Virus record (IMG/VR): IMGVR_UViG_3300027759_000001
DNA: 64,000 nt
Reading direction: 5' to 3' (one strand)
Source: a virus
Lineage: Duplodnaviria; Caudoviricetes
Of this stretch, positions 5,291 to 64,000 are shown in pieces (within the stretch, counting starts at the first letter, position 1; every line of letters begins with the position of its first letter). The notes under the pieces are model-generated. The model did not search any database. It was not told the DNA's origin and saw only the letters and a program-made list of their open reading frames with translations. The position numbers and the translations under genes were made by a program.

Positions 5291-6826
5291 ATGAAAAAAG
5301 TTGTAAGGATTAACGAGAGTGATTTAATTGGATTAATAAAGAATATTATTATTGAACAAGATGATAGTGTTGAGTATGAAGATTTCACTCCACAAGAATA
5401 TATGGATTTATTAAAGTCTGTTAATTATAAAGCACAAGCGATTCCTAAGTTTCCTGATTTCAAAGGTAAAAAAATAAGAGTAAATGGTAACTTACCCTTA
5501 ATGGGTTTAAAACAAATAACTAATTTGGGTGAGTTAATTGTGACTGGTGATTTAAATCTTCGTTCCTCAGGTATTGTAAGTCTTGAAGGTGTTACAGTTG
5601 GTGGTAGTTTAAGTTATTGGGACACACCATATAGTAAAGAAATTGATAGAAGAAAAGAAATGGCTTTAAGGGCTGAAGCCAGACAAAGAAGAGAAGATGG
5701 TGAATGGGATTTAAATAATTCTAATATTGATGACGAAGGTTTAATGGCAAACGCAGTTTTTGATTATATGGTTCAAGAAGGTGATATTGGATATTTAGAT
5801 GGACCAGAACGTGAAGAATTAGAAGATTTGGAAAGAAGAATGGAAGAACTTGAGGAAAGAATAGATAACGAGGAAGATTCTGAAATTGTTGATGAATTGG
5901 AGATTGAACAAAATGATTTGCAATCCGAGATTGATGAACTTAAGGATAAAGATAATGATGTGTATGATTTAATACCTGAGGGTTCCCATTATGACTTATA
6001 TACATTTAGGTCAATACATAATGATGCTAGTGGTTATATTTATGCGGTTGGAACTGAAAATGAAGCGGATAGTTCCCTTAAAGAGTATTATGATGAAATG
6101 GTAAATGATTTAAGTAATTTTGATAAAAATACTTTATCTTACCATATTGATGGTGACGAAGTTGCGGAATATTATGAAGACATGATTCGTGAATGGGTTA
6201 TGGACGATCCTGAAAATTATGATGTTAGTAGGGAAACTAGTGTTAAACAAGATAAAGAAATTGAAAAATTACAAAACCAAAAAAGGTCACTTGAAATAGA
6301 AACATATTTAATTTCAAGTGGAGCTAGATCTCCTCTTATAGAGGAAGATGTTGAATCTGTAAAATACTTCAAATTTAATGATTATATGGATAATATTTTA
6401 ATTGTTGAATGGTCTGAAAATAAATGGCAAATTTACCAAAACGGTAAAAAAGTTGAGTCAGTAACTTATGAAGATGAAGATGAGGATGGTGAACATGAGT
6501 CGGATAATGAATCAAGGGTTGAAGAAATTGAAAGTGAAATAGAAGGTATAGACGAAGAAATACAAGATATAAAAGATGATCCAGATGGTGATTTAAATGA
6601 TGATGAGGTTGAAGAAGCCGTTGAGGATAGGTTATTTCAAATTAAAGATGACCCAATGAGTTGGTTAGATGAAATGGGTGATGACTATAATAATTTTATA
6701 GATAGACAAAGTTTATTAAATGATTTAATAGATGAGAATGATTATGGTGTAATAAGTAGTTACAACAATGAATATGACACCGTTTCAGTTAATGATTCAA
6801 CTTTTGTTGTAATGAGAATTGACTAA
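5291..6826 (+). CDS. highly acidic protein with leader motif and short LRR-like solenoid
   Basis: MKKVVRINESDLIGLIKNIIIEQ leader; ITNLGELIVTGDLNLRSSGIVSLEGVTVGGSL. Confidence 0.85.
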   Translation: MKKVVRINESDLIGLIKNIIIEQDDSVEYEDFTPQEYMDLLKSVNYKAQAIPKFPDFKGKKIRVNGNLPLMGLKQITNLGELIVTGDLNLRSSGIVSLEGVTVGGSLSYWDTPYSKEIDRRKEMALRAEARQRREDGEWDLNNSNIDDEGLMANAVFDYMVQEGDIGYLDGPEREELEDLERRMEELEERIDNEEDSEIVDELEIEQNDLQSEIDELKDKDNDVYDLIPEGSHYDLYTFRSIHNDASGYIYAVGTENEADSSLKEYYDEMVNDLSNFDKNTLSYHIDGDEVAEYYEDMIREWVMDDPENYDVSRETSVKQDKEIEKLQNQKRSLEIETYLISSGARSPLIEEDVESVKYFKFNDYMDNILIVEWSENKWQIYQNGKKVESVTYEDEDEDGEHESDNESRVEEIESEIEGIDEEIQDIKDDPDGDLNDDEVEEAVEDRLFQIKDDPMSWLDEMGDDYNNFIDRQSLLNDLIDENDYGVISSYNNEYDTVSVNDSTFVVMRID

Positions 6827-6858
6827 TACCTTTACAGAATACAATTATATTATTATGT

Positions 6859-7656
6859 TTGTGGGTAATGGCAAGAAATAAAAAAATAGAATTTGTAATG
6901 GACACCGATTGGATGTTTGAAAAGCCAATTGATAGTGAACATAAGGAATATAAATTACTATCATATTTCCAACGTATGGGTGAAAAGTTAGATAACATGG
7001 AACTTTATCCTGGGTTTATAGAATTATCATTACATTTAGCAAACATACAAACACTTATCAGGGATAAGAAAATCATATATACAAACAAAAAATTTAATTC
7101 AGTTGATGACGAACTTTTAGTGAAAGATCTTAAAATTAAAAGTGTTCCTGAAATGTCAACTGATGAATATGAAGAATTCACAAAAATTTTACAATACACT
7201 GCACCAAGGATGTCGGAATATTTTAATATTGCAAAATCTGTATGGACATTAGTTTATGATAGTATTGAGGCAAAATACAGGAAGAATAAAAAAGAAATTT
7301 TATCTAACAAAGGTTTCTTCTTCCATTTGGATAAGAGAGACAACAAGTATTATGTTTGGGAGTATGAAGTATCTCCGGCAGCAAAAAAATCACCAGAAAA
7401 TAAGACAAATGTTAAATTAATTTATTGTGATGATAAAAACAAATTGACAATACCAAAGATAATAACTACATTTTCTGAGACCGAAAACAAAACAAAGTTA
7501 CCGGTGTTAGAAATGATTAGTAAAGGTGATTTCCCAATTGAAGAAACATTATTACCATTATTTAAAAGAAAAACAATAATGTTAATTAATCAAACGAGAA
7601 ATTACAATATTGAACAAGAGGACAAGAAAAAAGAAAAAGAATTTTTAGAAGATTAA
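6859..7656 (+). CDS. hypothetical protein
   Basis: 265-aa ORF. Confidence 0.8.
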   Translation: MWVMARNKKIEFVMDTDWMFEKPIDSEHKEYKLLSYFQRMGEKLDNMELYPGFIELSLHLANIQTLIRDKKIIYTNKKFNSVDDELLVKDLKIKSVPEMSTDEYEEFTKILQYTAPRMSEYFNIAKSVWTLVYDSIEAKYRKNKKEILSNKGFFFHLDKRDNKYYVWEYEVSPAAKKSPENKTNVKLIYCDDKNKLTIPKIITTFSETENKTKLPVLEMISKGDFPIEETLLPLFKRKTIMLINQTRNYNIEQEDKKKEKEFLED

Positions 7657-7658
7657 AA

Positions 7659-7841
7659 ATGGGTTTTAACAAAAGATTTTTAAAGAAAGAGAACATCCTT
7701 AATCACCTTACAGATATTATGAATTATTTAGATGCCGACGCAGTGTTGTGTACGGATGAATTTTCACGCAATGTCTACAGGATGTTTAATGAGGGAAAAA
7801 ATGAGGAAGAAATAATAAAATACATAAATAAAAATAAATGA
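7659..7841 (+). CDS. hypothetical protein
   Basis: ORF with ATGA overlap to next gene. Confidence 0.75.
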   Translation: MGFNKRFLKKENILNHLTDIMNYLDADAVLCTDEFSRNVYRMFNEGKNEEEIIKYINKNK

Positions 7842-10464: not shown

Positions 10465-10671
10465 ATGAAACTAACAGAAGAACAAAAAAATCATATTCAG
10501 GATCAATATGATGCCTTAAAACAAACTGATAAAGAGTTTGAGGAAATACACGATATGATTGTTGAACATTGTGTGGATGAATACATTGTTGACTTATCAG
10601 ATGATGAGGATGGAGACCTTTACGAAGAGTTTTCAAATGAAGTATGGGATTATTTAGAAAGTATTAAATAA
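10465..10671 (+). CDS. acidic hypothetical protein
   Basis: ORF. Confidence 0.7.
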   Translation: MKLTEEQKNHIQDQYDALKQTDKEFEEIHDMIVEHCVDEYIVDLSDDEDGDLYEEFSNEVWDYLESIK

Positions 10672-12586: not shown

Positions 12587-14143
12587 ATGAAGAAAAAGTT
12601 AATAACGGAATCGGGAATAAGAAACATCAGGGAATTATCTAAAAGATACCCTGAGGCTAAGATATATTTTCACCAAGATTTAGATGGTGTAACCACTGCT
12701 TTAGGTATGAAAAATTACTTAGAACAAAATGGAATCAAAGTTGTTGACTCTGAGATTATTCAATATGGTGATAAGGAATTCGCAATTAAGAAGTTGGATG
12801 CTGAGGGTGATGTTATGCCGGTGTTAGTTGACTTTGCTCATGGTAAACCAATGTTTATTATACACACTGACCACCACGATACACAAGCGGGAGTTGAACA
12901 AGGTACCTCAACTAATTTTAAATCTTCAAGATCTAACGTTGAGACAATATCCCAAACCGTATCTCCAAGAGATATTTTCCCATCTGACGATATCACTTTG
13001 ATATCTACGGTTGACTCAGCAAATTATGCTCAATATGATATTAGTCCTGAACAAGTAATGAACTATTTGTTTAAGGTAGATAAAGATCAATCACTACAAA
13101 AAAACAAAATGATAATGGGTATGGTTGCTAATAAATTATTATTGGCATTTAAAAACAAACCAGGGTTCTTGGAAAATATTGTAATGAATGCAAATCCATC
13201 GTTATTAAGTATATTGTTAAACATCAGATCTCAGATCAAAGAAAAAAGTTATGCTGATGTTGGAGATTTAGAAAAAAACAAAGAGAGTTATGTTCAAACA
13301 ATGAAAACTCACAAAAATGTTAAAGTTGATGATAAAATTATAGTTCAGTATGGTGGGGGTAGTATGATGAAACCAGGATCATATGATAGATACACACCAT
13401 TCAGAAATAATCCTGATGCAGACTTCTTGGTGATTGCTTGGCCGTTAGGGTTGGTACAAGCGTCTTGTAATCCATTTAAGAAAGAAAGAGCACTTAAAGG
13501 TGTAAACTTAGGTGAGATCAAAGATGATGTCTTAAACAAGTGGAAATCACAATTACAAGATAAGGACATTTCATTATCTACAATAAAATGGATATCAGAA
13601 TCAGGAAAAGGTTTTGGTGAACAATCAGTTGGTTTTACATTCAGAGATTTTAACGCCTTATATGGTAAAGAATTTAAACAAATGGCCGATGGGGAAGATA
13701 TCCTTGGTGATGTTGAAGTGGCAATGAAAAAACCATTCAGTGATTTAACAGATAAAGAAATGAGAATGTTAGATTCTATTAGTGTAAACGCTTGGGATCT
13801 AATTCAATCCAATAGTGGTGGACACAAATGTATTACAAATATTTCTGGGTTGTCATACTTAGGTAGATCTAAAAGACCACCTAAGGGTAAATACAAATAT
13901 AATGAAGAGTCAGAGGATTCTCCTTATATTAAATTTACTAAGATGGTACAGAATGAATTTGTTAGAGTTTTAAAAGCAAAAATTGATGAAGACGGTGGTG
14001 ATAGATATGAGCCGAATTTTGAGGTTGAAATGACGGAACACTCAAGGTCATTAAGTAACGCTAGAAAACAAGGACAAGGATTAAGATTTCCAAAGTCGGC
14101 AGTAAAATCAAATCAAATGAGATTTAGACCAAATAATAGATAA
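12587..14143 (+). CDS. DHH/DHHA1-family phosphoesterase with leader and basic C-terminal tail
   Basis: HQDLDG, VDFAH, TDHHD, VDSAN, SGGHK. Confidence 0.8.
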   Translation: MKKKLITESGIRNIRELSKRYPEAKIYFHQDLDGVTTALGMKNYLEQNGIKVVDSEIIQYGDKEFAIKKLDAEGDVMPVLVDFAHGKPMFIIHTDHHDTQAGVEQGTSTNFKSSRSNVETISQTVSPRDIFPSDDITLISTVDSANYAQYDISPEQVMNYLFKVDKDQSLQKNKMIMGMVANKLLLAFKNKPGFLENIVMNANPSLLSILLNIRSQIKEKSYADVGDLEKNKESYVQTMKTHKNVKVDDKIIVQYGGGSMMKPGSYDRYTPFRNNPDADFLVIAWPLGLVQASCNPFKKERALKGVNLGEIKDDVLNKWKSQLQDKDISLSTIKWISESGKGFGEQSVGFTFRDFNALYGKEFKQMADGEDILGDVEVAMKKPFSDLTDKEMRMLDSISVNAWDLIQSNSGGHKCITNISGLSYLGRSKRPPKGKYKYNEESEDSPYIKFTKMVQNEFVRVLKAKIDEDGGDRYEPNFEVEMTEHSRSLSNARKQGQGLRFPKSAVKSNQMRFRPNNR

Positions 14144-16078: not shown

Positions 16079-16291
16079 ATGTTACCTAAAATAAAATTAA
16101 CGGAAAGTGAAATCAGAGACATTTTGAGTAAACATGGTGTAAAGACTAATGTGTTGGTTGAACAAACTCAAAATTATACTACTGCGGATATTCAAAATTG
16201 GTTAAATTCTAATAAAAACGCAGGATTAGATGTTGACGGTAAATTGGGAATTTTAACGGTTAAGGCCATAAAAAATGCGTTAATGGGATAA
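16079..16291 (+). CDS. small peptidoglycan-binding-domain protein with leader
   Basis: IQNWLN...LDVDGKLGILTVKAI. Confidence 0.75.
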   Translation: MLPKIKLTESEIRDILSKHGVKTNVLVEQTQNYTTADIQNWLNSNKNAGLDVDGKLGILTVKAIKNALMG

Positions 16292-16294: not shown

Positions 16295-18448
<2,154 letters not shown>

Positions 18449-23628: not shown

Positions 23629-24768
23629 ATGGAAGATAAAAAAATTATTATTGAAGAATTAAGTAGGATTAAAAATCTTATGGTTTATGATAGATCTAAA
23701 ACATTAAATGAAAATATTAATGAAGGTTTGTTTGACACTTCGGATGGTAAGATAGCGAGATGGTTATTACCTTCAGGTGATATCATTACCGGAGATAAAA
23801 TAAAAGGGATGATACCTACAGGGGCGGAACAGTTAAATGCTAAAAATGCGGAAAAAGCGATTGATATTGCTAGTGGGTTGAAAACCGCTTCCTCTCTTTT
23901 TGGTGGTGGAGGAGCAACTGCTGCGGCAACAGGTGCTGCTGAGGTTGGAGCTGGTGCCCTTGAGGTTGGAGGCATTACGTATAGTGCTGGTGCGGTTGGT
24001 GCTGGTGCGGTTGGTGCTGGTGCGGTTGGTGCTGAGGGTGCTGCAGCGGCTACTTTTTTAGGTTTAGGACCTGTTGGTTGGATAGTAATCGGTGTTGCAG
24101 GTCTTGCGGCTTTAGGTTATTGGGCGGCAACAAAGGATGATAAAATGGGTATGATTGAAAATTTATTTGGAATTTGTAAATCAAGTAAAGAAAAGGATAA
24201 GTGGAAAAGATATATGAGTGATGAGGAGGTTAGAAAAAATTCAGGTATATTATACCATGCTATGGAAGGTTGGGGTACAGATGAGGATGCAATTTATAAT
24301 GTATTTAAATTGTTTAAAAGTCCTGGTGATTTTTGTGCGGTAAGTGAAAAATATGAAAGTACATTTGACGAATCATTATTAGATGCTTTAGATGGTGACT
24401 TTGATTATGGTTGGGAACCAATTGCAAAATCTTTAGTTGATATGACTAAAAACTATGCTCAAACTGAGGCTGAAGATTATTGTAAAAATAACGTTAAAGA
24501 ATGTGCGGACAAATTAAAATTGTATTGTGAAAAAACGCCTGACGATCCTAAATGTAAAGTTTTGAAAACTAATGTTGTTGACTTTAAAAATTGTAATGGT
24601 GAATACTATAAAGGATGTAAGGGACCAAAAATAGTACAAATACAAAAATGTTTAGGTTTAACTGCCGATGGTAAATTTGGTGAAGAAACAGAAAAAGCGT
24701 TGGAGGAGAAAACAAAAAGTAAAACATTCAAAGACGTAGATGTTAAAACAATATGTGATAAAAAATAA
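23629..24768 (+). CDS. leader + Gly/Ala zipper TM + annexin-like repeat + PG-binding-like domain
   Basis: LYHAMEGWGTDEDAIYNVF; IVQIQKCLGLTADGKFGEETEKAL. Confidence 0.85.
   Translation: MEDKKIIIEELSRIKNLMVYDRSKTLNENINEGLFDTSDGKIARWLLPSGDIITGDKIKGMIPTGAEQLNAKNAEKAIDIASGLKTASSLFGGGGATAAATGAAEVGAGALEVGGITYSAGAVGAGAVGAGAVGAEGAAAATFLGLGPVGWIVIGVAGLAALGYWAATKDDKMGMIENLFGICKSSKEKDKWKRYMSDEEVRKNSGILYHAMEGWGTDEDAIYNVFKLFKSPGDFCAVSEKYESTFDESLLDALDGDFDYGWEPIAKSLVDMTKNYAQTEAEDYCKNNVKECADKLKLYCEKTPDDPKCKVLKTNVVDFKNCNGEYYKGCKGPKIVQIQKCLGLTADGKFGEETEKALEEKTKSKTFKDVDVKTICDKK
23986..24030 (+). repeat. 3 x 15-bp tandem repeat (AGAVG)
   Basis: GCTGGTGCGGTTGGT x3. Confidence 0.95.
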
Positions 24769-35680: not shown

Positions 35681-35707
35681 AAAGTCGGACTTAGATCCGA
35701 CTTTTTT
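35681..35707. terminator. bidirectional terminator
   Basis: AAAGTCGGA-cttaga-TCCGACTTT. Confidence 0.85.
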
Positions 35708-40747: not shown

Positions 40748-41884
40748 ATGGGTAAAAATATAATTATTGAGGAATTAGATAGGATAAAAACTATAATGGG
40801 TATTTTGGTTGAACAAGAACAACAATTAGAGCCATTGGTAAGTGGTGATTTAACTATTAAGTATAGTAATTTTGCACCTGACAGGAATTTCAGAAAAAAC
40901 TATGTTTATATTAATGGTGTGTCTGACAAAGATATTACTAAACTAAAAGAATTAAAATTATCAAATACAAATAGTAAAGTTATATTAAAAAACTATAACA
41001 CAAATGAAACGTTTGAATTTCCTCAAAAAGAAGTGAAGATAACAATAAATGGTAAATTATATATTCTTGATACGGAGTATAATAAAATAATAAAGACATT
41101 AGAGACTCATGAAATTGAATTGAATAAGGATTTCCTAAAAAAAATGGAGTCAAAGTTTCCTGATTTTATGATTAAAGTAATGAGAGAAGTTTATCCTAAT
41201 AATTGGGGTAAAAATGGTTTTACCGATAGTAATGGTATTTGTGATACTGAGGAAGGTTTAATAAATATTGAAGGGACTAATGTTCCTGGTCAAACTTGGT
41301 CAATACTTAATTACTTTGATACTAATCCTAAAGTAATACAACAATTAATTGAATGGTTTTATAGTGGTGTGTTTAATAATGATGAAACACCACTTAAATC
41401 AAGTATTAAGGATTTTGAGAGTTGGATAACAACCAATAAAGAAGAAATATTCAAAGGAGATAATTTAAATAAACTAGTATCACTTAACAGAACATCATAT
41501 GAAAATGGAATTAAGAGTGAAAATACTACAATTGATAAATTAACTCAATCACCATTCAACATTCCAAGAGAAAATATTAAACAATATTGTTCAGGATCAA
41601 GAGAAGATAGATTTGAGGCAAAAGATCTTAAAATAGAAACACCTGATGGAGATAAACACGTTCAAATAAAACCATTGGAATGGTTTAAGATTGATGAGAA
41701 AACAGGTGAATATATTGTTAAGACTTATTATATGAAAAACTATAAAGGTTATTTAAAAAGATACGGACTTAATTATATTGCGTTCATTAACAATAAAAAT
41801 ATATTAGTCTTTGATAATAAGGATTATGATCTTGATGGGTATCACTATGTGAAGTTCAAGAATAAACCTGTTGAAAAAATATAA
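40748..41884 (+). CDS. hypothetical protein with leader
   Basis: MGKNIIIEELDRIKTIMGILVEQ. Confidence 0.8.
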   Translation: MGKNIIIEELDRIKTIMGILVEQEQQLEPLVSGDLTIKYSNFAPDRNFRKNYVYINGVSDKDITKLKELKLSNTNSKVILKNYNTNETFEFPQKEVKITINGKLYILDTEYNKIIKTLETHEIELNKDFLKKMESKFPDFMIKVMREVYPNNWGKNGFTDSNGICDTEEGLINIEGTNVPGQTWSILNYFDTNPKVIQQLIEWFYSGVFNNDETPLKSSIKDFESWITTNKEEIFKGDNLNKLVSLNRTSYENGIKSENTTIDKLTQSPFNIPRENIKQYCSGSREDRFEAKDLKIETPDGDKHVQIKPLEWFKIDEKTGEYIVKTYYMKNYKGYLKRYGLNYIAFINNKNILVFDNKDYDLDGYHYVKFKNKPVEKI

Positions 41885-45247: not shown

Positions 45248-46414
45248 ATGTCAGAGGAACACAAATTATCACCATTCTTTAAAAGAAGGATTGACCATCA
45301 TAAGTTTGAAAAAATGATGAGGAAAGGTATTATCTATATGTATCAAGAATCAAATTCCCTTGAAGAATTTAAATTTAAGTTAGTTAAAGCAACATTAGAA
45401 AATTATATTTATTATAAATATAATATTGATATTGAAGATTTACCTCACAATGATGTGGATAATTTTATTGATTATATGGTTGATACTTATGAACCTGTAC
45501 TTAAGATGTATTATTATAATGAAAGAAAAAATAGTGGTAATATAAATGAAAATTATAGTCCAGCAGGAAAAGAAATTACACCAAACAAAATTGTTATACA
45601 TAAATCTAACCCAAAGTTTAGAGATATAATATCAAATGAAGGGTTAAAAGTAAGGGCTGGAGAATGTTATAAAATATATGCAGGTTATGGTGAAAAATGT
45701 ATACCAGCAATCTTTGCAACTAACTCAATAAATAAAAGAGCATCGTTTGATTCCACATATGATGACGATGTTTGGGAAATTGATACTGAAATGATACCTG
45801 ATGTTAAGTGGTACAAAGATAAACACTATGAATCAAGATCAAAACATATAGTAACATTTGAAAACATACCTGCAGATGCAATAACATTAAAACATGAAGG
45901 TACAGGTAAGGATTGGGGATTAATGGAATCAACTAATGATGATAAGTTAAGTAAAGAAACAATGGTGGGTACATTTCAAGACATTGTTGAGGAAACGTTG
46001 GAGGAAATTAGAAATATTTGTGAAGTACTTGATATAGATACTTTCCCTGGTTGGTTGTCGTTTGATGGTTGTGATGTTGTTGATACTATAGATAAAATAA
46101 CTATTGTAAATATAGAAAGAAAAAAAGGTATAAGTAGAATTCCTATGTTTGAAGTTGATGTAAATCTGACGCTTAATGGTATTTGGGGAGGAATTGATTA
46201 TGATGATTTTATTTATACTATTTCGGATAGAATAATTGGTAAATGGAAGATACATTTAATTTTTAATATTAAAGAACAGGAGAATAGTAATAAACGAGAA
46301 ATGTGGGAATACGCAAGGACACTAAAAAATGCAAGAACTCAGGGATCCAAATTAAGGTTCTCTAAGTCTGCAGTCAAAGCAAACCCTATGAGGTTTAGAC
46401 CATACAATAGATGA
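45248..46414 (+). CDS. modular protein: RR-domain + ADP-ribosyltransferase/Tpt1-like fold + shared basic C-tail
   Basis: VIHKS...IISNEGL...AIFAT...VWEID...NIPADAI. Confidence 0.6.
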   Translation: MSEEHKLSPFFKRRIDHHKFEKMMRKGIIYMYQESNSLEEFKFKLVKATLENYIYYKYNIDIEDLPHNDVDNFIDYMVDTYEPVLKMYYYNERKNSGNINENYSPAGKEITPNKIVIHKSNPKFRDIISNEGLKVRAGECYKIYAGYGEKCIPAIFATNSINKRASFDSTYDDDVWEIDTEMIPDVKWYKDKHYESRSKHIVTFENIPADAITLKHEGTGKDWGLMESTNDDKLSKETMVGTFQDIVEETLEEIRNICEVLDIDTFPGWLSFDGCDVVDTIDKITIVNIERKKGISRIPMFEVDVNLTLNGIWGGIDYDDFIYTISDRIIGKWKIHLIFNIKEQENSNKREMWEYARTLKNARTQGSKLRFSKSAVKANPMRFRPYNR

Positions 46415-47001
46415 AAGAGTTAATTAGAAAAATATTGAAGGAAGAAAGAATGAACCCAATCAAAAAGTTCTTCTTTAATCATTGGGATGAAATAAGATCC
46501 GAAGGGGAATACCCAACTATTGATTATAGTTTAATTGGTAAACTTGGATTTAGAAAAAAAGCAATAGAAATACATGATTACTATCTTGAATACATTGGTG
46601 GTGAAGGTATTGGTGAAGAAAAATTATTAGATTTTTTGTCAAATCAAACATTTGATTCTAGTGAACTAAATTTCAGAAGACACTGGGATGATGAAGATTT
46701 AAAATTTACGTTTAAGTTAAGTAATGTTCGTATTACTAATGATAGAGATGGGGATAAAAACATTGATGCGGATGCGGACATACTTGAGGGTTATATTAAT
46801 ATGACAGAGTATAATGATATAGAGGACGAACATTATCAAAACAGGTATGATATTTCAAGGGGTAATAACGAAATAGATGATATGTCCTCTTACTTTGAGG
46901 TTCAGGATGAACTTAGGGCAATAATTCAATCATTTATTATTGATTTTGCAATAAAATATGGTACAGAAATTACCGAAGCTGAGGTTGAATTATTAAAATA
47001 A
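46411..47001 (+). CDS. hypothetical protein with leader
   Basis: MKELIRKILKEE; paralog of 47226. Confidence 0.8.
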   Translation: MKELIRKILKEERMNPIKKFFFNHWDEIRSEGEYPTIDYSLIGKLGFRKKAIEIHDYYLEYIGGEGIGEEKLLDFLSNQTFDSSELNFRRHWDDEDLKFTFKLSNVRITNDRDGDKNIDADADILEGYINMTEYNDIEDEHYQNRYDISRGNNEIDDMSSYFEVQDELRAIIQSFIIDFAIKYGTEITEAEVELLK

Positions 47002-47225: not shown

Positions 47226-47780
47226 ATGAAAGATTTAATCAGAAAAATATTAAGGGAAGAAAAGGTTAATCCTGTAAAGAAATATTTCTTTGATCTTTGG
47301 GATGAACAGAAATCATTAGGTGATACACCAAGATACGATAAGAAGATGGTAAAGAGGCTTGGTTTTAGTACAAAACAAAGGGACATAATGGGTTACTACA
47401 GAGAATATATGGGTAATGTTTATGACATGAGAAAAGATTTTGAAAGATATCTAACTAGTAAAAAAGAATTAACCACAGACGATATGGAAGATGAGGGTAT
47501 TCATACAGGTGGATATGATTTTTCATTTAAATTTCCATATGTTTTTGTAAGAGAAGAAAATAATCAAGTTGAGATATTTGTTGATTTTGATATTACTCAC
47601 GGTAGTGTTACTTTAATGACAAACGGTGAGGAATATGATTTAACTGATCACGAATCAATTGAGGATGATCTTTGGTTAGAACTTAGTTCAGAAATACAAG
47701 ATATGATACAAGATTTTGTTGTGGCAACTGCGAACTCATTTGGTGTGGAATTTTATGACGTATATGTTCAATGGGGTTAA
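47226..47780 (+). CDS. hypothetical protein with leader
   Basis: MKDLIRKILREEKVNPVKKYFFDLWDE. Confidence 0.8.
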   Translation: MKDLIRKILREEKVNPVKKYFFDLWDEQKSLGDTPRYDKKMVKRLGFSTKQRDIMGYYREYMGNVYDMRKDFERYLTSKKELTTDDMEDEGIHTGGYDFSFKFPYVFVREENNQVEIFVDFDITHGSVTLMTNGEEYDLTDHESIEDDLWLELSSEIQDMIQDFVVATANSFGVEFYDVYVQWG

Positions 47781-48901: not shown

Positions 48902-49504
48902 ATGAGAGATATAATTAAAAAAGTATTAAAAGAAGAAGACGAAAGACAAAGATACATCAAATCTACAGATAGTCTTAGAAAAGTTATCACATTATTTCTT
49001 AATGATTATATTGAGGATGGTAATAGAATAATAGGTAAAAAATCTCGTAACTATGGTAATCTTCGCGAGGATTGGTGTGTTAACGGTAAAGAAGTTATTA
49101 CCGCAATATACTATTACGAAGACGGTAAATTTGATAATGGTACATTACTGATATCATGGGTATTAGTGAAAAAAATAATGAAAATTTTTAACACAAGAAA
49201 AAACTTTGTGATGAGTATAATAGAGGAATGGTATGAAGATACTATGATTCCAAAGTTTGAACAAATAGTTGGTGAAACAGGTTTTTATTTTGATGATGTT
49301 GATCTATATGATGGAGACCACGATTGTATTCCTGAACCAGTTAAACCTGAAAATATTACAGATGAAGAAATGCTTGAGTTTATTGTAGATAATACCGCTT
49401 ATCGTAGAGATGAGGTTATTAATAAAATTGAATCAGGTGAAAGAGACCTTGAAGATTTTTATTTGGATATTGTTCATACTGTTGAAAATAAAAAAAGATA
49501 CTAG
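48902..49504 (+). CDS. hypothetical protein with leader
   Basis: MRDIIKKVLKEE. Confidence 0.8.
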   Translation: MRDIIKKVLKEEDERQRYIKSTDSLRKVITLFLNDYIEDGNRIIGKKSRNYGNLREDWCVNGKEVITAIYYYEDGKFDNGTLLISWVLVKKIMKIFNTRKNFVMSIIEEWYEDTMIPKFEQIVGETGFYFDDVDLYDGDHDCIPEPVKPENITDEEMLEFIVDNTAYRRDEVINKIESGERDLEDFYLDIVHTVENKKRY

Positions 49505-52900: not shown

Positions 52901-53746
52901 ATGAACTTACAAGAGAACATACAAAGAATTAGATCAATGATGGGTCTCAGGGAAGAAACTGAGATAAAAGATATTGATATGGATATTTCTTACAAATACG
53001 ATCCAAAAGTAATTGAAATTCAAAAAGAATTAACCAATAAAGGATATTATATTGGAAAATTTGGTGATGATAAAGATGGTATTGACGGAATATATGGTCC
53101 AATTACAAAGGCGGCACATGAATCTTACAAAAAAGAAATACCACCAGAAGAGTTTGAATCAAAAAAAACTGAAATGGCTAAAGAGTATGTAGATGAAGTG
53201 GATGTTAGTGATTTAAAAGAATTTAAATTTCATAAAATACCTGGAGGAACAAATAATTGGAGATCGGCTCAAATAACCGCAGATGTATTACCTTCAGTAA
53301 TTAAAAAATATGGTATAAAAAATATTATCAGAATGAGTGGTGATGACGAAAAACATAAAAGTGATCACCCTAAAACATCTTTAGATACTGAACAAAAAAT
53401 ATGTGAAGAAAATGATTGTACTTACCATTTTATTAATGCTCATAGTGGATATAAATTAGGTAAAGGTTATACTAAATCAATACAAAAAATTAATGACATT
53501 TTAAATCAAGGTAATACATTAATTCACTGTGCTCACGGTGCTGATAGAACTGGAGGAATGGTTGGTGCTTATCTTAAAAATAATGGTTATATGACAGATA
53601 AAGATGAATTATGGAAATATACCACACAATTTAATAGTTGGCAAAGCTTAATTAATAATAATAATTTTTTTGGAAGTGGTTACGACAAATATGCCGACGG
53701 ATTTTACCCTATCTCAGAATTAAAAAATTCAAAATGGGTTAAATAA
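52901..53746 (+). CDS. leader + PG-binding domain + Cys-based (PTP/DSP) phosphatase
   Basis: IQKEL..GIDGIYGPIT; WRSAQ; IHCAHGADRTG (CX5R). Confidence 0.88.
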   Translation: MNLQENIQRIRSMMGLREETEIKDIDMDISYKYDPKVIEIQKELTNKGYYIGKFGDDKDGIDGIYGPITKAAHESYKKEIPPEEFESKKTEMAKEYVDEVDVSDLKEFKFHKIPGGTNNWRSAQITADVLPSVIKKYGIKNIIRMSGDDEKHKSDHPKTSLDTEQKICEENDCTYHFINAHSGYKLGKGYTKSIQKINDILNQGNTLIHCAHGADRTGGMVGAYLKNNGYMTDKDELWKYTTQFNSWQSLINNNNFFGSGYDKYADGFYPISELKNSKWVK

Positions 53747-53756: not shown

Positions 53757-54239
53757 ATGACCTTACAAGAATCCATAAGAAAAGTATTAAGGGAAGAATC
53801 AATACAAGATAGTTTGTTTGACATGATTAAAACCGATGGATTTAAAAAGGCAGCAAAAGCCGTTGGTGGTGGTAAAAGATTAATGAAGATATTAAATATT
53901 GATGATGAAGATCTTGATGAATTTATATACCAATATCTAACGGATAATCTACATCCTGATTATAATTGGGGACCCAAATTACACAATTTATATAAAGAAG
54001 ATGTAAAAAAATATGGAATTTATGAATTTTCAATAAACGATAAGTATCGTTATGCGTATCTTGGTGAATGGGATGGTTATGATTACTTATACACTTTAGT
54101 AATTAGTGAATGGGCGAATAACGAATTAACATCATTATTTGGTGATAAATGGATTCCTGTATTTAAAAGATGGTTTGAGTATAACTCAGGTCTTGAAGTT
54201 AGGAAAATAGATTTAAAAAATAGATATTTACATTTATGA
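53757..54239 (+). CDS. hypothetical protein with leader
   Basis: MTLQESIRKVLREE. Confidence 0.8.
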   Translation: MTLQESIRKVLREESIQDSLFDMIKTDGFKKAAKAVGGGKRLMKILNIDDEDLDEFIYQYLTDNLHPDYNWGPKLHNLYKEDVKKYGIYEFSINDKYRYAYLGEWDGYDYLYTLVISEWANNELTSLFGDKWIPVFKRWFEYNSGLEVRKIDLKNRYLHL

Positions 54240-55006
54240 ACCTACAAGAAACCATAAGAAAAGTATTATCTGAAGAAACATTAAAGGATAGTTTAACTGA
54301 TCTAATTAAGACTGATGGTATTGAACGTGCATCAAAAACGGTTGGTGGTTTAACAAGGTTGGCAAAAATATTAGAACTTGATCTTGATGACGTAGATACT
54401 CAAGAAATGTTGGTTAAAAATTTTATTTACCATACTAAAATTGATCAGATTGATGTGTCATTTATTGAGGTTAGACCATCTGCTAGTGGAGGTAAGATTC
54501 TTACCATTAATTTAAAAACTGATGATACTGCGTCAAATGTAACAAGTTGGTATGTGCATGAGATATGTAATTATTTTAATGGGAGACAGGACTCACCAGA
54601 AGTGAATAAAAAATTATTTCCTTTTAAAGTAAAACCAGCATGGCATCCTGTTTTTGCTTTAAGTGGATGTAAAATATTTTTAGATGCTGAGATAGTTGAT
54701 GATGAAGAAGATGATGAGGACTTAATGGAATCTAAACAGAAAGGACCAAGAGAAATACCAAATGAATTAAAACGAAGATCACAACGTTTAGATGATCTAA
54801 TTGTAAAGGTAATAAAAGATATAGAAATATGTGAGTATAATACACCTGATGAGTTTATTTATGTGGTTGTTGACGAACTTATATGGGAGTTAAGAGATGA
54901 CTACCATGGAGACCTTAATAAGTTAGATAAATTTGATGTGACACAATATGTGTATGACTTCAAATACCGTGAGTTAGAAGATTATTTTCTTGAGAGTTGT
55001 CAATAA
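54236..55006 (+). CDS. hypothetical protein with leader and C-terminal RR domain
   Basis: MNLQETIRKVLSEE; ELKRRSQRLDDL..ICEY. Confidence 0.8.
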   Translation: MNLQETIRKVLSEETLKDSLTDLIKTDGIERASKTVGGLTRLAKILELDLDDVDTQEMLVKNFIYHTKIDQIDVSFIEVRPSASGGKILTINLKTDDTASNVTSWYVHEICNYFNGRQDSPEVNKKLFPFKVKPAWHPVFALSGCKIFLDAEIVDDEEDDEDLMESKQKGPREIPNELKRRSQRLDDLIVKVIKDIEICEYNTPDEFIYVVVDELIWELRDDYHGDLNKLDKFDVTQYVYDFKYRELEDYFLESCQ

Positions 55007-56151: not shown

Positions 56152-56490
56152 ATGAACCTACAAGAAAACATACAAAGAATTAGAGAAATGATGGGGGTTA
56201 ACGAATCTTTTTTAGATTGGTTTAAATCATCCGACAGTAATAATGACGATGAGGATTTTTTAAAATCTGAAGAAGAAAGATTTACTTGTTCCGATTGCGG
56301 AGAAAAAGATTATAGTATGTACATGGTTAATGATGAGATATGGGACGAACATGGTAATGATAAATTAACTTTATGTAAGAGTTGTTTAGAAAAAAGAATG
56401 GGAAGGAAATTAACCAAAAAAGATATTTCACAACATAAAGATGCGTTAGTTAATATACATAATCCTGAAATGAAAGATTTAGAATATTAA
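56152..56490 (+). CDS. leader + Zn-finger protein
   Basis: MNLQENIQRIREMMGVNES; CSDCG...LCKSCLEKR. Confidence 0.8.
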   Translation: MNLQENIQRIREMMGVNESFLDWFKSSDSNNDDEDFLKSEEERFTCSDCGEKDYSMYMVNDEIWDEHGNDKLTLCKSCLEKRMGRKLTKKDISQHKDALVNIHNPEMKDLEY

Positions 56491-56491: not shown

Positions 56492-56851
56492 ATGAACCTA
56501 CAGGAGAACATACAAAGGATTAGATCAATGATGAATCTGAATGAGTCAGATAAAAATAAGATTTGGTTATTAAGAAGACTGGAAACCCAAGATATAAAAG
56601 ATTACCTAAATGAACAAATTGATAGTTTAACCGATCAAATTAGTCCTTGTGGTTATAGTACATCTGAAGATTATAAAGATGTAATTTTTGAAGTTGCAAG
56701 TTCTAATTTTATTAATCATTTTAGTGATGAACTTTATGTTAAACATGAAATGTCAGAAATTGAAGAAATTATATGGGACTTATTAACTAAAAAATATGGT
56801 AATTACCTTATAAATCAATTTGACGGTAGAATCTGTGATGATGAGTATTAA
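56492..56851 (+). CDS. leader + RR..PC.Y domain
   Basis: MNLQENIQRIRSMMNLNES; WLLRRL..SPCGY. Confidence 0.8.
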   Translation: MNLQENIQRIRSMMNLNESDKNKIWLLRRLETQDIKDYLNEQIDSLTDQISPCGYSTSEDYKDVIFEVASSNFINHFSDELYVKHEMSEIEEIIWDLLTKKYGNYLINQFDGRICDDEY

Positions 56852-56852
56852 T

Positions 56853-57173
56853 ATGAACCTACAGGAACACATAAGAAAAGTATTAAAGGAAAACAATAAT
56901 GGATCAAAATTCTTTCATAGAAGAATTGATTTAGATGAGGTTAAATGGTTACTTTCAATTAATGCAGAACAAATATTTCATGAAACAAAAAGTTTTAAAC
57001 AATTTAAATATGAAGTAACTTTAAGGGCAGTGGAATCAATTATGTGGAATGAACATGGAATCGGGTGGGAAGATTTACCTGAACAAGAAGAAATAGATTT
57101 TGTTACAAAAGTATCAGATATGTTTGAGTACATGATTATAGATTTATATAAACATATTCGTGGTAAGTTATAG
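56853..57173 (+). CDS. leader + domain paralogous to N-terminus of 45248
   Basis: MNLQEHIRKVLKE; FFHRRID..WEDLP. Confidence 0.8.
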   Translation: MNLQEHIRKVLKENNNGSKFFHRRIDLDEVKWLLSINAEQIFHETKSFKQFKYEVTLRAVESIMWNEHGIGWEDLPEQEEIDFVTKVSDMFEYMIIDLYKHIRGKL

Positions 57174-62496: not shown

Positions 62497-62802
62497 ATGA
62501 ATCACAAGTTAAAAAAAATTGTTAGGGGGGTATTAAGGGAAGAAATGAAACCCCCAAATTATATCAAGAGAAGATATATTTGTATGGATAAATATATAAC
62601 AAAATTAGAAAATGGGGAAGAAACCCTCCCTATAAGAATAAGACGATTAGATTGGACTCATTACCAAATAATAGTGACCGCTTTTATAAGATCTAATTGT
62701 GACGATGGTGATGGGTATTATGATCCAATTATACATTCAAAGATTATGGATACATTTGGTGATAGATTATATGAATGGTATAACGATAATATTGATATAT
62801 GA
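62497..62802 (+). CDS. hypothetical protein with leader
   Basis: MNHKLKKIVRGVLREE; YIKRR. Confidence 0.8.
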   Translation: MNHKLKKIVRGVLREEMKPPNYIKRRYICMDKYITKLENGEETLPIRIRRLDWTHYQIIVTAFIRSNCDDGDGYYDPIIHSKIMDTFGDRLYEWYNDNIDI

Positions 62803-63143
62803 ATAACAAGTTAAAAAAAATTATTAGGGGAGTATTAATGGAATCTTTAACTGAGTCAGAACCTCTTTGGTATAGATTACCTAATAATATACTTAATGAA
62901 TTGGGGATTGAATTATATAACCCTGATGATGAGGCTTATGTTGTTGAGATACATTTTGATACTAAGAACGTATTGATTCAATTATATACAGTAGAATTTA
63001 ACGAATTGGTTCCGTATTGGAATTCTAATCAAATACCTGGTAATATAAAAGATAATTTTGATATACCTTTAAGTGAAATCCCAAAAAGTTTAAAAAGTCT
63101 TATCTTTAGAAGATTAAACCCTAGTTATCACAAATACCTATGA
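62799..63143 (+). CDS. hypothetical protein with leader
   Basis: MNNKLKKIIRGVLMESLTES. Confidence 0.8.
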   Translation: MNNKLKKIIRGVLMESLTESEPLWYRLPNNILNELGIELYNPDDEAYVVEIHFDTKNVLIQLYTVEFNELVPYWNSNQIPGNIKDNFDIPLSEIPKSLKSLIFRRLNPSYHKYL

Positions 63144-63421
63144 AGATCATTATAACGGAATCACAATATAATAGAATATGGTTACTACGAAGATATAAAT
63201 TAGTCAGGGATAGTTTTGATGAAATTCTTATGTATATTAAAAATCCTTGTGTGTATGATTCTTTTGAACATTACGAAAGAACATTTGTGGATCTTATGTT
63301 GGATGAACTTCACCCCGAATATTATTTGATTGATAATTTTGATTATGAAGGGATGATCTCCGAACTAAAGGATATGTTCTATGTTGAGTTAACCGAATTA
63401 TACTACGAACGTAATTGTTAA
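63140..63421 (+). CDS. leader + RR..PC.Y domain
   Basis: MKIIITESQ; WLLRRY..NPCVY. Confidence 0.8.
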   Translation: MKIIITESQYNRIWLLRRYKLVRDSFDEILMYIKNPCVYDSFEHYERTFVDLMLDELHPEYYLIDNFDYEGMISELKDMFYVELTELYYERNC

Positions 63422-63488
63422 TATATTAATCCCCCCTTCAACAAATAGTTTTTTGTTTTATAAACTATTTATTAGTAAATAATATACT

Positions 63489-63737
63489 ATGGGAAGATTA
63501 ACAGAATCAGATTTATCACGTATTGTTAAACGTGTTGTTAATGAAAATCATAACCCTTTAGATAGACTTAGGGATGATTTAAATTTGATATCACGAAAAC
63601 TTTTAAGATCTATGGATGAATATTCAACATTAACTAAAAAAGGGGATTATAAAAGAATGGGTGATGAAGTTGATAACCTTAGAAGAATGGTTCGTAGGTT
63701 AAAAGACGTTATCCAAGAAATAGAAACTAAAATATAA
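63489..63737 (+). CDS. leader + coiled-coil protein
   Basis: MGRLTESDLSRIVKRVVNE. Confidence 0.8.
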   Translation: MGRLTESDLSRIVKRVVNENHNPLDRLRDDLNLISRKLLRSMDEYSTLTKKGDYKRMGDEVDNLRRMVRRLKDVIQEIETKI

Positions 63738-63755
63738 ATTAGAAAAGAACAAACT

Positions 63756-64000
63756 ATGAAAATCATTATAACAGAACGACAGTCCAAACTATTAAGACGT
63801 ATTATTAGTGAAGAATCGGATTACGAAATGGATGAAATAATTTATGATATTAAAACAACAGATTGTGAAGGATCTAGTCTTGGTAATATGTCTTCAATGG
63901 GCGTTGATGAGGATGAGGATGGAAACATTGTTGTATTTATCAGATATTGTAAAGGTGATGACGAGGAGTTAGAACATCTTAAAATGAAAGCAAGAATGGA
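63756..64000 (+). CDS. 3'-truncated protein with leader
   Basis: MKIIITERQSKLLRRIISEE..., open to window end. Confidence 0.75.
   Translation, partial: MKIIITERQSKLLRRIISEESDYEMDEIIYDIKTTDCEGSSLGNMSSMGVDEDEDGNIVVFIRYCKGDDEELEHLKMKARM

What the first reader, a model, noticed from the sequence alone, without database searches (positions are those of the whole stretch)
5291..64000. About 25 unrelated proteins share interchangeable N-terminal leaders ending in [ILV]-x-E: candidate capsid-targeting / injected-cargo system
SEEN: leader classes MKK..[IL][NT]ESD[LI]..[IL][IV]K..[IV].E (5291, 12587, 16079, 16295, 63489), MKII[IV][TS]E.Q (38956-, 41887, 63140, 63756), M...IIEEL.RIK..M (23629, 40748), MK[DE]LIRK[IV]L[KR]EE (46411, 47226, 48902, 36677-, 62497, 62799) and MNLQE[NST]I.[RK] (52901, 53757, 54236, 56152, 56492, 56853). 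They are fused to different bodies: DHH esterase, PTP, SGNH-SLT, annexin-like, Zn fingers. KNOWLEDGE: the T4 internal-protein capsid targeting sequence is an N-terminal peptide removed by prohead protease gp21 after [IL]-x-E. INFERENCE: a large, modular arsenal of head-packaged proteins delivered at infection.
Basis: partly seen in the sequence, partly recalled or inferred. Interest (0 to 1): 0.8.

Follow-up and report, generated by a model that had tools for sequence, protein, structure and literature searches.

The report
Shared head-cargo leaders on phage proteins
About 25 otherwise unrelated late proteins of this uncultured T4-like giant lake phage start with interchangeable short leader peptides that end at the cutting motif of the phage's head protease. 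They are therefore probably loaded into the capsid and trimmed there, as T4 does with its three internal proteins but on a far larger scale; nobody has shown packaging or cutting.

Summary
All listed ORF starts exist. The leaders are strictly N-terminal: 65 regex matches in N-termini against 0 in 92,356 internal residues. They are selected as peptides, not as DNA. The same body occurs behind three different leader classes, always joined right after a Glu.

In a 99%-complete relative, 61 of 348 ORFs carry a leader. One leader class alone hits 7,886 protein clusters in metagenomes.

Support for the capsid-cargo reading is circumstantial but coherent:
- Five large relatives all encode a T4-type gp23 capsid protein and a gp21-type (S77) protease.
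- Their capsid protein has LINE|A where T4 has LTE|A.
- Leader genes use the same late-promoter motif as sheath, tube, baseplate and protease genes.
- When leader-tagged modules occur fused inside longer proteins, a hydrophobic-x-Glu motif sits exactly at the joint in 10 of 25 cases, where chance gives about 2% per case.
- Sec-signal, radical-SAM-tag and mRNA-level explanations failed their tests.

No virion proteomics or cleavage data exist. I rate it a much-expanded, bipartite variant of the T4 capsid-targeting sequence, with confidence about 0.6. This scan noted similar leader and polyprotein systems before, in other freshwater T4-like phages and in neighbouring windows of this genome.

The parts
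5291..6826 (+). Class A leader (MKKVVRINE|SDL..NIIIE|Q) on a 511-aa body with no Pfam family
   Evidence: HMM A, E 5e-12. TATTTAT at -13. The G006 orthologue G26640 has a different leader joined at the same E|Q.
10465..10671 (+). Weak class E-like N-terminus (MKLTEEQKNHI..), 68 aa
   Evidence: HMM E, E 5e-6. Uncertain member.
12587..14143 (+). Minimal 8-residue leader MKKKLITE|S on a DHH-like body, with the shared basic C-terminal tail
   Evidence: The G006 orthologue has MKMVITESQYKRLLNE|S on the same body. TATTTAT at -11. DHH match is weak. C-terminal tail.
16079..16291 (+). Class A-like N-terminus (..KIKLTE|SEIRDIL..), 70 aa
   Evidence: Seen by eye. Below HMM threshold.
16295..18448 (+). 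A/D-like leader (MKKITDSLLKKIVRQSLNE|S) on a 717-aa body with PG_binding_1
   Evidence: Below HMM threshold.
23629..24768 (+). Class F leader (..KKIIIEELSRIKNLM..) on an annexin-repeat body
   Evidence: HMM F, E 3e-7. Annexin 25.9 bits. TATTTAT at -21, after a terminator-like GGGGGTTTTTT.
35038..35394 (+). Possible class E-like N-terminus (..VLSENEEISSQH..) followed by the FYFLMRRLK domain
   Evidence: By eye only. Uncertain.
35706..36677 (-). Class D-like leader (..HSIIKKVLLEE|V), 323 aa
   Evidence: TATTTAT at -14. Conserved in L001-L004.
38756..38956 (-). Class B leader MKIIITE|KQ on a 66-aa CxxC protein
   Evidence: HMM B, E 4e-11. TATTTAT at -12.
40748..41884 (+). Class F leader (MGKNIIIEELDRIKTIMGILVE|Q), 378 aa
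   Evidence: HMM F, E 7e-7. TATTTAT at -12.
41887..43383 (+). Class B leader (MKIVISE|EQLKTLVHLIKE|D) on an SGNH esterase + PG_binding_1 + SLT transglycosylase
   Evidence: Pfam. In 91 homologues the leader is as conserved as the SLT domain, 0.81 against 0.83. AlphaFold2 gives residues 1-20 pLDDT below 50 and the SGNH domain 77-96.
45248..46414 (+). Leaderless multi-module protein: an FFKRRID module, a joint ..SGNINE|NYSPAGKE.. near residue 101, and the shared basic C-terminal tail
   Evidence: Module 2 stands alone behind MNLQESIRRILRE|DD.. in L019. Tail.
46411..47001 (+). Class D leader MKELIRKILKE|E, 196 aa
   Evidence: HMM D, E 4e-10.
47226..47780 (+). Class D leader MKDLIRKILRE|E; paralogue of 46411
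   Evidence: HMM D, E 1e-10. blastp.
48902..49504 (+). Class D leader MRDIIKKVLKE|E, 200 aa
   Evidence: HMM D, E 2e-8.
52901..53746 (+). Class C/F leader MNLQE|NIQRIRSMMGLRE|E on a PG_binding_1 + dual-specificity/Tyr-phosphatase-like body
   Evidence: HMM F, E 7e-11. Pfam. TATTTAT at -11.
53757..54239 (+). Class C/D leader MTLQE|SIRKVLRE|E
   Evidence: HMM C, E 5e-11.
54236..55006 (+). Class C/D leader MNLQE|TIRKVLSE|E
   Evidence: HMM C, E 1e-11.
56152..56490 (+). Class C/F leader MNLQE|NIQRIREMMGVNE|S on a 112-aa CxxC protein
   Evidence: HMM C, E 3e-14.
56492..56851 (+). Class C/F leader ..MMNLNE|S followed by a WLLRR domain
   Evidence: HMM F, E 5e-12.
56853..57173 (+). Class C/D leader MNLQE|HIRKVLKE|N followed by an FFHRRID domain
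   Evidence: HMM C, E 6e-12.
62497..62802 (+). Class D-like leader MNHKLKKIVRGVLRE|E
   Evidence: TATTTAT at -13.
62799..63143 (+). Class D-like leader MNNKLKKIIRGVLME|S
63140..63421 (+). Class B leader MKIIITE|SQ followed by a WLLRR domain
   Evidence: HMM B, E 3e-11.
63489..63737 (+). Class A leader MGRLTE|SDLSRIVKRVVNE|N, 82 aa
   Evidence: HMM A, E 8e-13. TATTTAT at -23, after a terminator-like T run.
63756..64000 (+). Class B leader MKIIITE|RQ; the ORF runs off the window
   Evidence: Translation.

Best explanation
The leaders are an expanded, diversified counterpart of the phage T4 capsid-targeting sequence. Each is an 8-35-residue N-terminal peptide. It typically has a short MK-hydrophobic-..-T/S-E head and then an amphipathic helix that ends in hydrophobic-x-Glu.

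Inferred mechanism: late in infection the helix docks the protein onto the scaffolding core of the assembling prohead. The gp21-type (S77) head protease then cuts after the Glu residues, which removes the leader and separates the modules of fused polyproteins. The mature proteins stay in the head and leave with the DNA at the next infection.

Shown here:
- The leaders are N-terminal, selected as peptides, and interchangeable.
- The leader/body boundary lies after Glu.
- The genes carry the late-promoter motif.
- Relatives encode a T4-type protease and capsid protein.

Inferred, not shown: docking, cutting, packaging and ejection.
For: 1. Position and selection
- 315 of 328 leader hits in 1,380 ORFs of related loci are N-terminal.
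- 145 of the best 150 database hits start at residue 5 or earlier.
- Synonymous codon choice inside class A and B leaders is about random, 0.55 against 0.46 expected and 0.54 against 0.53.
- In 91 homologues of the 41887 protein the leader is as conserved as the catalytic SLT domain.

2. Interchangeability at a fixed Glu
- The body GLHDTSW.. follows class A (..KRVINE|G), class B (..RLQKE|G) and class F (..MGVINE|G) leaders.
- W12587 and W5291 have leaders different from their G006 orthologues, joined at the same E|S and E|Q.

3. Protease context
- 5 of 5 large relatives that carry the MNLQENIQRI leader encode PF07068 gp23 and PF03420 S77 protease.
- All five capsid proteins have ..ENQAS[HFY]LINE|A aligned with T4 ..AFGSFLTE65|A.
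- T4 IPII/IPIII MKTYQEFIAE|A and gp24 MAKINELLRE|S have the same design as class D MKELIRKILKE|E.
- gp21 cuts after L/I-x-E, and the T4 sequence is 10 residues long (PMC9026906).

4. Timing
- TATTTAT is 10-fold enriched upstream of genes.
- It precedes the tail sheath, tail tube, baseplate wedge, adaptor and protease genes.
- It precedes 41 of 79 leader genes against 82 of 377 other genes (odds ratio 3.9, p 2e-7).
- The host-type TAnnTTTG motif is depleted upstream of leader genes (2 of 79 against 45 of 377).

5. Joints
- 33 families occur both standalone and fused. In 24 the fused form has hydrophobic-x-E within 3 residues of the joint, against a 14% background.
- Among the 25 without a recognisable internal leader, 10 have the motif ending exactly at the homologous residue, where chance is about 2%.

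6. Capacity
- One copy each of the 61 G006 leader proteins is about 1.6 MDa.
- SPN3US heads hold more than 40 MDa of ejection proteins (PMC7411985 abstract).

7. Structure
- AlphaFold2 leaves the leader of 41887 as a low-confidence detached helix.
Against: - No direct evidence of packaging or cleavage exists. No cultured phage carries the leaders, so no virion proteome can be consulted.
- Some 18% or more of all genes would be head cargo, far beyond any characterised phage.
- Many database proteins keep a complete second copy of the helix internally (48 of the best 150). This is more than a cleavage site needs and hints that the helix has a function of its own.
- The residue after the Glu is mostly E/S/N/D/Q, not the Ala of the T4 sites read here.
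- Several bodies are cell-wall enzymes or carry LysM, PG-binding or Ig-like domains. They could equally be tail-, surface- or lysis-associated.
- The same FFxRRID body also occurs without any leader (45248, 48206).
- Nine of the 25 joints lack the motif.
Confidence: 0.6

Rival explanations
1. The leader is a docking or assembly helix for another late destination, and the head protease does not remove it. Candidate destinations are the virion surface, tail or fibres, a phage-encoded hub or chaperone, or self-association.
For: - Full helix copies are kept internally in 48 of the best 150 database hits.
- The heptad-like hydrophobic spacing is typical of protein-protein docking.
- Some bodies have Ig-like, CarboxypepD_reg, LysM or PG-binding domains that are common on virion exteriors.
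- Late expression fits any virion component.
Against: - It does not explain why a bare hydrophobic-x-E is kept exactly at fusion joints that have lost the helix.
- It does not explain why three unrelated leader classes all end at the same Glu before one body.
- It does not explain the match to the capsid protein's own LINE|A site.
Confidence: 0.2
2. There is no common function. The leaders are conserved N-terminal remnants spread by duplication and cassette-like recombination in hyperplastic regions, and the bodies diverge quickly behind them.
For: - Tandem arrays of leader genes.
- Three paralogue pairs in the window.
- Classes C and D share more synonymous codons than expected, 0.72 against 0.54 and 0.77 against 0.50, which suggests recent duplication or conversion.
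Against: - Classes A and B show random synonymous usage with strict amino-acid conservation.
- The leader is as conserved as a catalytic domain down to about 41% body identity.
- Class A alone heads 7,886 clusters at the 50% identity level.
- Bodies belong to unrelated Pfam families.
Confidence: 0.1
3. The conservation acts at the mRNA level. TATTTAT lies only 11-13 nt before the ATG, so the late mRNAs may be nearly leaderless, and the first codons would be constrained for translation initiation.
For: - TATTTAT peaks at -11 to -13 in front of many leader genes.
- Bacteroidota make little use of Shine-Dalgarno sequences (general knowledge).
Against: - Synonymous sites are randomised in classes A and B.
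- Leader copies occur inside ORFs, without a Met and far from any start.
- Leader genes inside operons, without the promoter, keep the leader.
Confidence: 0.04
4. The leader is an export signal, or the recognition tag of a modifying enzyme, as with a RiPP or radical-SAM tag.
For: - Several bodies act on peptidoglycan and would need to reach the periplasm.
- An earlier scan note reports a phage N-terminal tag linked to a radical-SAM enzyme (e1-127136).
Against: - Leaders are not hydrophobic. Their maximum 10-residue Kyte-Doolittle mean is 0.51, against 2.75 for true signal peptides in the same genomes. The longest uncharged run is 5 residues against 20.
- No radical-SAM gene is found in three near-complete relatives, while the control rang in 14 of 14 genomes.
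- A separate leaderless PG_binding + GH19 endolysin sits beside two small hydrophobic ORFs that look like holins by eye.
Confidence: 0.03

Closest known systems
Phage T4 capsid targeting sequence on internal proteins IPI, IPII, IPIII (and the Alt and gp24 propeptides), removed by the prohead protease gp21 (PMC9026906, PMC3012670)
   Same: - An N-terminal peptide that is transferable between unrelated proteins.
- An amphipathic pattern ending in hydrophobic-x-Glu.
- Late genes.
- The phage lineage encodes a gp21-type S77 protease and a gp23-type capsid protein whose own maturation site has the same form.
- Cargo genes are scattered in variable regions.
   Different: - No sequence identity to MKTYQEFIAE.
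- At least six intergrading leader classes instead of one.
- Leaders are mostly 17-35 residues long, with two or more potential cut sites flanking a conserved helix.
- 60 or more tagged genes per genome instead of about four.
- Tagged modules are also chained into polyproteins.
- The residue after the Glu is mostly acidic or polar rather than Ala.
- Nothing has been shown experimentally.
Ejection / inner-body proteins of phiKZ-like giant phages (phiKZ, 201phi2-1, SPN3US), processed by a diverged gp21 homologue at S/A/G-x-E (PMC9026906, PMC7411985, PMC10052503)
   Same: - Dozens of head proteins with N-terminal propeptides cut after Glu.
- Propeptides with several redundant cut sites.
- A large protein mass carried in the head.
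   Different: - Different phage lineage and a different P3 preference.
- No shared, interchangeable leader families have been described there.
- Here the head genes are T4-type proper.
Encapsulin cargo-loading peptides and P22 scaffold-domain cargo targeting
   Same: A short transferable peptide directs unrelated proteins into an HK97-fold shell.
   Different: Those tags are C-terminal, are not removed by a maturation protease, and are not part of an infectious particle (encapsulins).
Phage P1 Dar antirestriction proteins packaged in the head (PMC9024508, PMC12810830)
   Same: Head-packaged, injected proteins whose packaging depends on an N-terminal region.
   Different: Hierarchical protein-protein dependence rather than a common cleavable leader; only a few proteins.

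Membership tests
T4-type capsid-targeting sequence / prohead-protease-processed head cargo | The phage encodes a gp21-type (Peptidase_S77) prohead protease and a gp23-type capsid protein | tested here: met
   5 of 5 large relatives carrying the same leaders have PF03420 and PF07068 matches above the cut-off.
T4-type capsid-targeting sequence / prohead-protease-processed head cargo | The tag lies at the extreme N-terminus | tested here: met
   65 N-terminal against 0 internal regex matches. 315 of 328 HMM hits are N-terminal. 145 of the best 150 database hits start at residue 5 or earlier.
T4-type capsid-targeting sequence / prohead-protease-processed head cargo | The tag ends in the protease motif (L/I-x-E) at the tag/body boundary | tested here: met
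   97% of leaders have at least one site and 85% at least two. The motif is 3-4 times denser than elsewhere, z about 10 against shuffles. Leader swaps and fusion joints fall exactly after the Glu. The capsid protein has LINE|A at the T4 LTE|A position.
T4-type capsid-targeting sequence / prohead-protease-processed head cargo | The tag is transferable between unrelated proteins | tested here: met
   Evolutionary evidence only. One body occurs behind classes A, B and F. One leader class occurs on SGNH-SLT, lysozyme-LysM, DHH-like and CxxC bodies.
T4-type capsid-targeting sequence / prohead-protease-processed head cargo | Expressed late, together with the head proteins | tested here: inconclusive
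   The promoter-like motif TATTTAT is shared with the sheath, tube, baseplate and protease genes and is enriched before leader genes, OR 3.9. No transcript data exist.
T4-type capsid-targeting sequence / prohead-protease-processed head cargo | Sequence similarity to the T4 sequence MKTYQEFIAE | tested here: not met
   T4 IPII and IPIII N-termini read from NC_000866 share only the pattern M-K-x-hydrophobic..hydrophobic-hydrophobic-x-E with class D. There is no alignable identity.
T4-type capsid-targeting sequence / prohead-protease-processed head cargo | The protein is physically present in the virion with the leader removed | not testable with these tools
   Needs virion mass spectrometry or N-terminal sequencing. 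No cultured relative was found.
Sec/Tat/lipoprotein signal peptides | A hydrophobic h-region of about 10-20 uncharged residues | tested here: not met
   Longest uncharged run has a median of 5, against 20 in true signal peptides of the same genomes. Maximum hydropathy is 0.51 against 2.75.
RiPP-like / radical-SAM recognition tags | A modifying enzyme (radical SAM/SPASM) encoded in the same genome | tested here: not met
   PF04055 is absent from three relatives that are 97-100% complete; the control rang in 14 of 14 genomes.

The most novel reading that the evidence does not exclude
A whole lineage of freshwater Bacteroidota-type T4-like jumbo phages devotes about a fifth of its genes to a plug-in protein-delivery system. 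Interchangeable bipartite leaders (a T4-like head plus an amphipathic helix, flanked by two protease sites) load 60-100 different proteins per genome into the capsid. The cargo includes peptidoglycan-cutting and peptidoglycan-binding enzymes, phosphatases and many orphan proteins. Modules are freely chained into polyproteins that the head protease cuts apart. This would be by far the largest and most modular virion cargo known.
Probability: 0.45. Interest if true: 0.85.

Novelty: new variant of a known kind. Interest (0 to 1): 0.62.

Why it matters
If the reading is right, the T4 trick of tagging a few proteins for the capsid has been scaled up in uncultured giant phages. It would be a general, evolvable cargo system covering thousands of protein families, and it would assign a cellular address to a large share of phage 'dark matter' ORFs.

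It would change how we think about the first seconds of infection, because dozens of pre-made enzymes, several aimed at the cell wall, would arrive with the DNA. It would also give ready-made, naturally diversified packaging tags and protease-cleavable joints for engineering phage capsids as protein-delivery vehicles. The leaders would become a simple sequence marker for finding candidate injected proteins, such as anti-defence and takeover proteins, in metagenomes.

Tried and rejected
The window's own head module could not be read, so I used the relatives G006-G010 instead.
- The nearest record, G001, and the loci L001-L004 are fragments without head genes.
- tblastn of two 30-residue leaders against 50,697 GenBank phages found nothing at E <= 1. 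No cultured model or proteome is therefore available.
- Flavobacterium phage immuto, the only GenBank nucleotide hit, is not T4-like and has no class A leader.
- A region-limited word search with the 52901 leader returned only 10 hits: seven full-length close relatives (90-98% identical) and three that share only the leader stretch. It was not informative about body diversity.
- PHROGs and PDB searches gave no name to the head-module neighbours that carry class D-like N-termini.
- Literature searches for the motif strings, and for 'capsid targeting sequence' together with metagenomes, found nothing relevant.
- Rejected readings: Sec-type signal, radical-SAM tag, nucleotide-level conservation, simple paralogy.
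- Single-linkage clustering of N-termini at score 36 chained in noise, so I replaced it with regex-seeded HMMs.

Full report
**Context.** The window is 30% G+C with about 108 mostly plus-strand ORFs and no tRNA genes. Earlier notes of this scan describe the genome as a roughly 290-kb uncultured freshwater T4-like phage whose head module lies upstream of the window. A protein of the window lies on a 291,788-bp contig. I therefore worked with relatives:
- L001-L004, 46-83% identical in the 41887 protein.
- Contigs found with a back-translated MNLQENIQRI pattern: 101 stretches in IMG/VR, many on 200-320-kb contigs.
- One 99%-complete relative, G006 (291,867 bp), which I fetched whole. It shares mosaic genes with the window at 66-95% nucleotide identity.

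**Observation.** All listed starts are real. The similarity of N-termini is far above chance:
- 28 pairs score 35 or more in the first 25 residues, against 3 for internal segments and 0 for shuffled N-termini.
- Six regexes for the leader types give 65 N-terminal matches and none in 92,356 internal residues.

HMMs seeded from these regexes find 78 N-terminal leader proteins: 17 in the window and 61 of the 348 ORFs of G006. One further G006 protein, G37804m, scores only through an internal class A copy at residue 205. In 1,380 ORFs of about 90 related loci, 328 have a leader and 315 of those are N-terminal. The classes intergrade: the MNLQE.I head is joined to either a ..VLKEE or a ..MMG.NE tail. 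They are best seen as one loose superfamily, a short MK-hydrophobic-(T/S)-E head followed by an amphipathic helix ending in hydrophobic-x-Glu.

**Peptide, not DNA.** Where two leaders have the same amino acid, they use the same codon about as often as genome codon usage predicts in classes A and B (0.55 against 0.46, and 0.54 against 0.53). Classes C and D show an excess (0.72 against 0.54, and 0.77 against 0.50) that fits recent tandem duplication. In 91 homologues of the SGNH-PG_binding-SLT protein (41887), down to about 41% identity, the leader is as conserved as the SLT domain, 0.81 against 0.83. AlphaFold2 on a shallow alignment models the SGNH domain well (pLDDT 77-96). It leaves residues 1-20 as a low-confidence helix.

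**Interchangeability and the boundary.**
- The body GLHDTSW.NDEGDK.. occurs behind a class A leader (..KRVINE|G), a class B leader (..RLQKE|G) and class F leaders (..MGVINE|G). It also occurs fused inside a longer protein after ..EEQTE|G.
- A pterin-4a-dehydratase body (Pfam) occurs behind C/F, B and E leaders.
- In the window, 12587 has only MKKKLITE|SGIRN.., where its G006 orthologue has MKMVITESQYKRLLNE|SGIRN...
- 5291 (..NIIIE|Q) and its orthologue (MSIKNIIKNMVLE|Q) have different leaders on the same body.

The junction is always directly after a Glu.

**The cutting motif.** [ILVM]-x-E is 3-4 times denser in leader N-termini than elsewhere. 97% of leaders have at least one such site and 85% have at least two. 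Shuffles that keep composition give 88 +/- 7 sites against 160 observed. The middle residue of the last site is Asn in 26% of leaders, against 7% background.

On its own the motif is a weak criterion, because 46% of other N-termini also have one. The stronger evidence comes from fusions. 33 module families occur both standalone behind a leader and fused inside a longer protein. In 24 of them the fused form has the motif within 3 residues of the joint, against a 14% background. Among the 25 whose joint no longer scores as a leader, 10 have the motif ending exactly at the homologous residue, where chance is about 2%. Examples are ..GGIME|SVDKSE....KPMNE|STFF.RRVD....TLSE|MIKLD.. and, in the window, 45248..SGNINE|NYSPAGKE... 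Selection for a bare hydrophobic-x-Glu at joints is what cleavage after Glu predicts.

**Protease context.** All five large relatives tested encode a gp23-type capsid protein and a Peptidase_S77 protease. In G006 the order of the main head genes is portal, protease, scaffold-position gene, capsid protein; small unidentified ORFs and an opposite-strand 64-aa ORF lie between portal and protease. I aligned T4 gp23, read from NC_000866, with the relatives' capsid proteins, and also used the PDB match to mature gp23*. The conserved ..ENQAS[HFY]LINE|A[AT] falls at the T4 ..AFGSFLTE65|A site, and all five genomes keep it.

T4 IPII and IPIII begin MKTYQEFIAE|A and gp24 begins MAKINELLRE|S. This is the same design as class D MKELIRKILKE|E. 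According to PMC9026906:
- gp21 cuts after L/I-x-E.
- The first 10 residues of IPIII suffice for packaging.
- Residues 4 and 7 serve targeting and residues 8 and 10 serve processing.
- The authors suggest the sequence may let T4-like phages package various proteins.

Genes next to the capsid gene in relatives carry class D-like N-termini: MKNLDRLIKQVLRE|D, MIERTIKNILKE|ATS, MNIQDIVNKIILE|ATT and MNLRESIKKHLILE|K.

**Timing.** TATTTAT is the most enriched upstream heptamer, 10-fold, in 123 of 456 genes. It precedes the tail sheath, tail tube, baseplate wedge, head-tail adaptor and prohead protease genes. It precedes 41 of 79 leader genes against 82 of 377 other genes (odds ratio 3.9, p 2e-7). 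The host-type TAnnTTTG motif is depleted before leader genes, 2 of 79 against 45 of 377. Many leader genes are single units: a terminator-like GGGGTTTTTT, then TATTTAT at -11 to -13, then the ATG.

**Scale.** A 36-column profile of class A leaders hits 7,886 representatives of 50%-identity clusters at E <= 1e-3, and 342 at E <= 1e-10. The ten I looked up are unnamed or 'hypothetical' metagenome proteins. 48 of the best 150 carry a second, internal copy of the core ..LTESDL.RIVKRVI.E. One copy of each G006 leader protein amounts to only about 1.6 MDa, so head capacity is not an obstacle. SPN3US heads, for comparison, hold more than 40 MDa of ejection proteins (PMC7411985 abstract).

**Cargo.** Most bodies have no Pfam family. 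Those that do are often aimed at the cell envelope:
- SGNH + PG_binding_1 + SLT.
- PG_binding_1 + phosphatase-like.
- Lysozyme + LysM.
- LysM.
- CarboxypepD_reg/Ig-like.
- Annexin and EF-hand.

A separate leaderless PG_binding_1 + GH19 enzyme lies beside two small hydrophobic ORFs that look like holins by eye, and it is the likelier endolysin. The tagged wall enzymes are therefore extra, which fits a role at entry.

**Rivals.**
- A Sec-type signal is excluded: the longest uncharged run is 5 residues against 20, and hydropathy is 0.51 against 2.75.
- A radical-SAM recognition tag is excluded: there is no PF04055 in three near-complete relatives, while the control rang in 14 of 14 genomes.
- mRNA-level conservation is unlikely.
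- Simple paralogy is unlikely.
- The serious rival is a docking helix for another late destination, without cleavage. It would explain the complete internal helix copies and the surface-type domains. It would not explain the conserved bare motif at joints.

**Verdict.** The library holds no paper with these motifs or on an expansion of the capsid-targeting sequence in metagenomes. This scan has noted analogous leader and polyprotein systems in other freshwater T4-like phages and in neighbouring windows of this genome. Those are unverified AI notes and I do not count them as support.

Noticed in passing
window 14027-14140 (C-terminus of 12587 protein) and 46298-46411 (C-terminus of 45248 protein); also G006 G239705m and 8 other loci: A shared, very basic 38-residue C-terminal tail (..R[TS]L.NAR.QG..LRF.KSAVK.N.MRFRP.NR) ends at least 9 otherwise different proteins, most of which carry an N-terminal leader. 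In three proteins it lies internally, before a further module. It could be a DNA-binding tail or a second sorting or processing element.
   Followed up: partly
window 45248, 48206, 56492, 56853, 63140, 62497, 35038 (N-terminal regions): A recurrent small domain with an FF.RR(I/V)D / WLLRR signature is often the first module after the leader (..NE|S.FF.RR.D). It also occurs with no leader at all (45248, 48206). It has no Pfam family.
   Followed up: no
upstream of many genes, e.g. window 5278-5284, 12576-12582, 38968-38962(-), 52890-52896; G006 throughout: The late-promoter-like motif TATTTAT peaks only 11-13 nt before the ATG. It is often preceded directly by a GGGGTTTTTT terminator. Many late mRNAs would therefore be almost leaderless.
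   Followed up: partly
G006 246308 (531 aa), L039:178+, L080:5841-, L009:20+ and relatives: Multi-module polyproteins occur in which standalone leader-tagged proteins of other genomes are chained. The joints are complete internal leader copies without a Met (..IISITEEQFQRLFE..) or bare hydrophobic-x-E joints.
   Followed up: partly
G006 37804- (446 aa; L122:16464-17804:-): An EF-hand protein has a class D-like N-terminus and a second, internal class A-like leader at residue 205.
   Followed up: no
G006 239705- (L132:19301-19705:-): A pterin-4a-carbinolamine dehydratase (PF01329, E 6e-24) carries both an N-terminal leader and the basic C-terminal tail. This is an odd enzyme to find as putative head cargo.
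   Followed up: no
G006 156088-156282 (+), L116:2658-2852; same place in G008, G009, G007: A small bS21-like basic ORF (64 aa in G006) lies on the opposite strand between portal and protease in the head module.
   Followed up: no
window 2533-3127, 7838-8956, 30920-31933: By eye there are a thioredoxin (WCGPC), a glutaredoxin-like protein (CGHC), a glutamine-synthetase-like ORF and a thymidylate synthase. The thymidylate synthase is 75% identical in DNA to that of Flavobacterium phage immuto.
   Followed up: no
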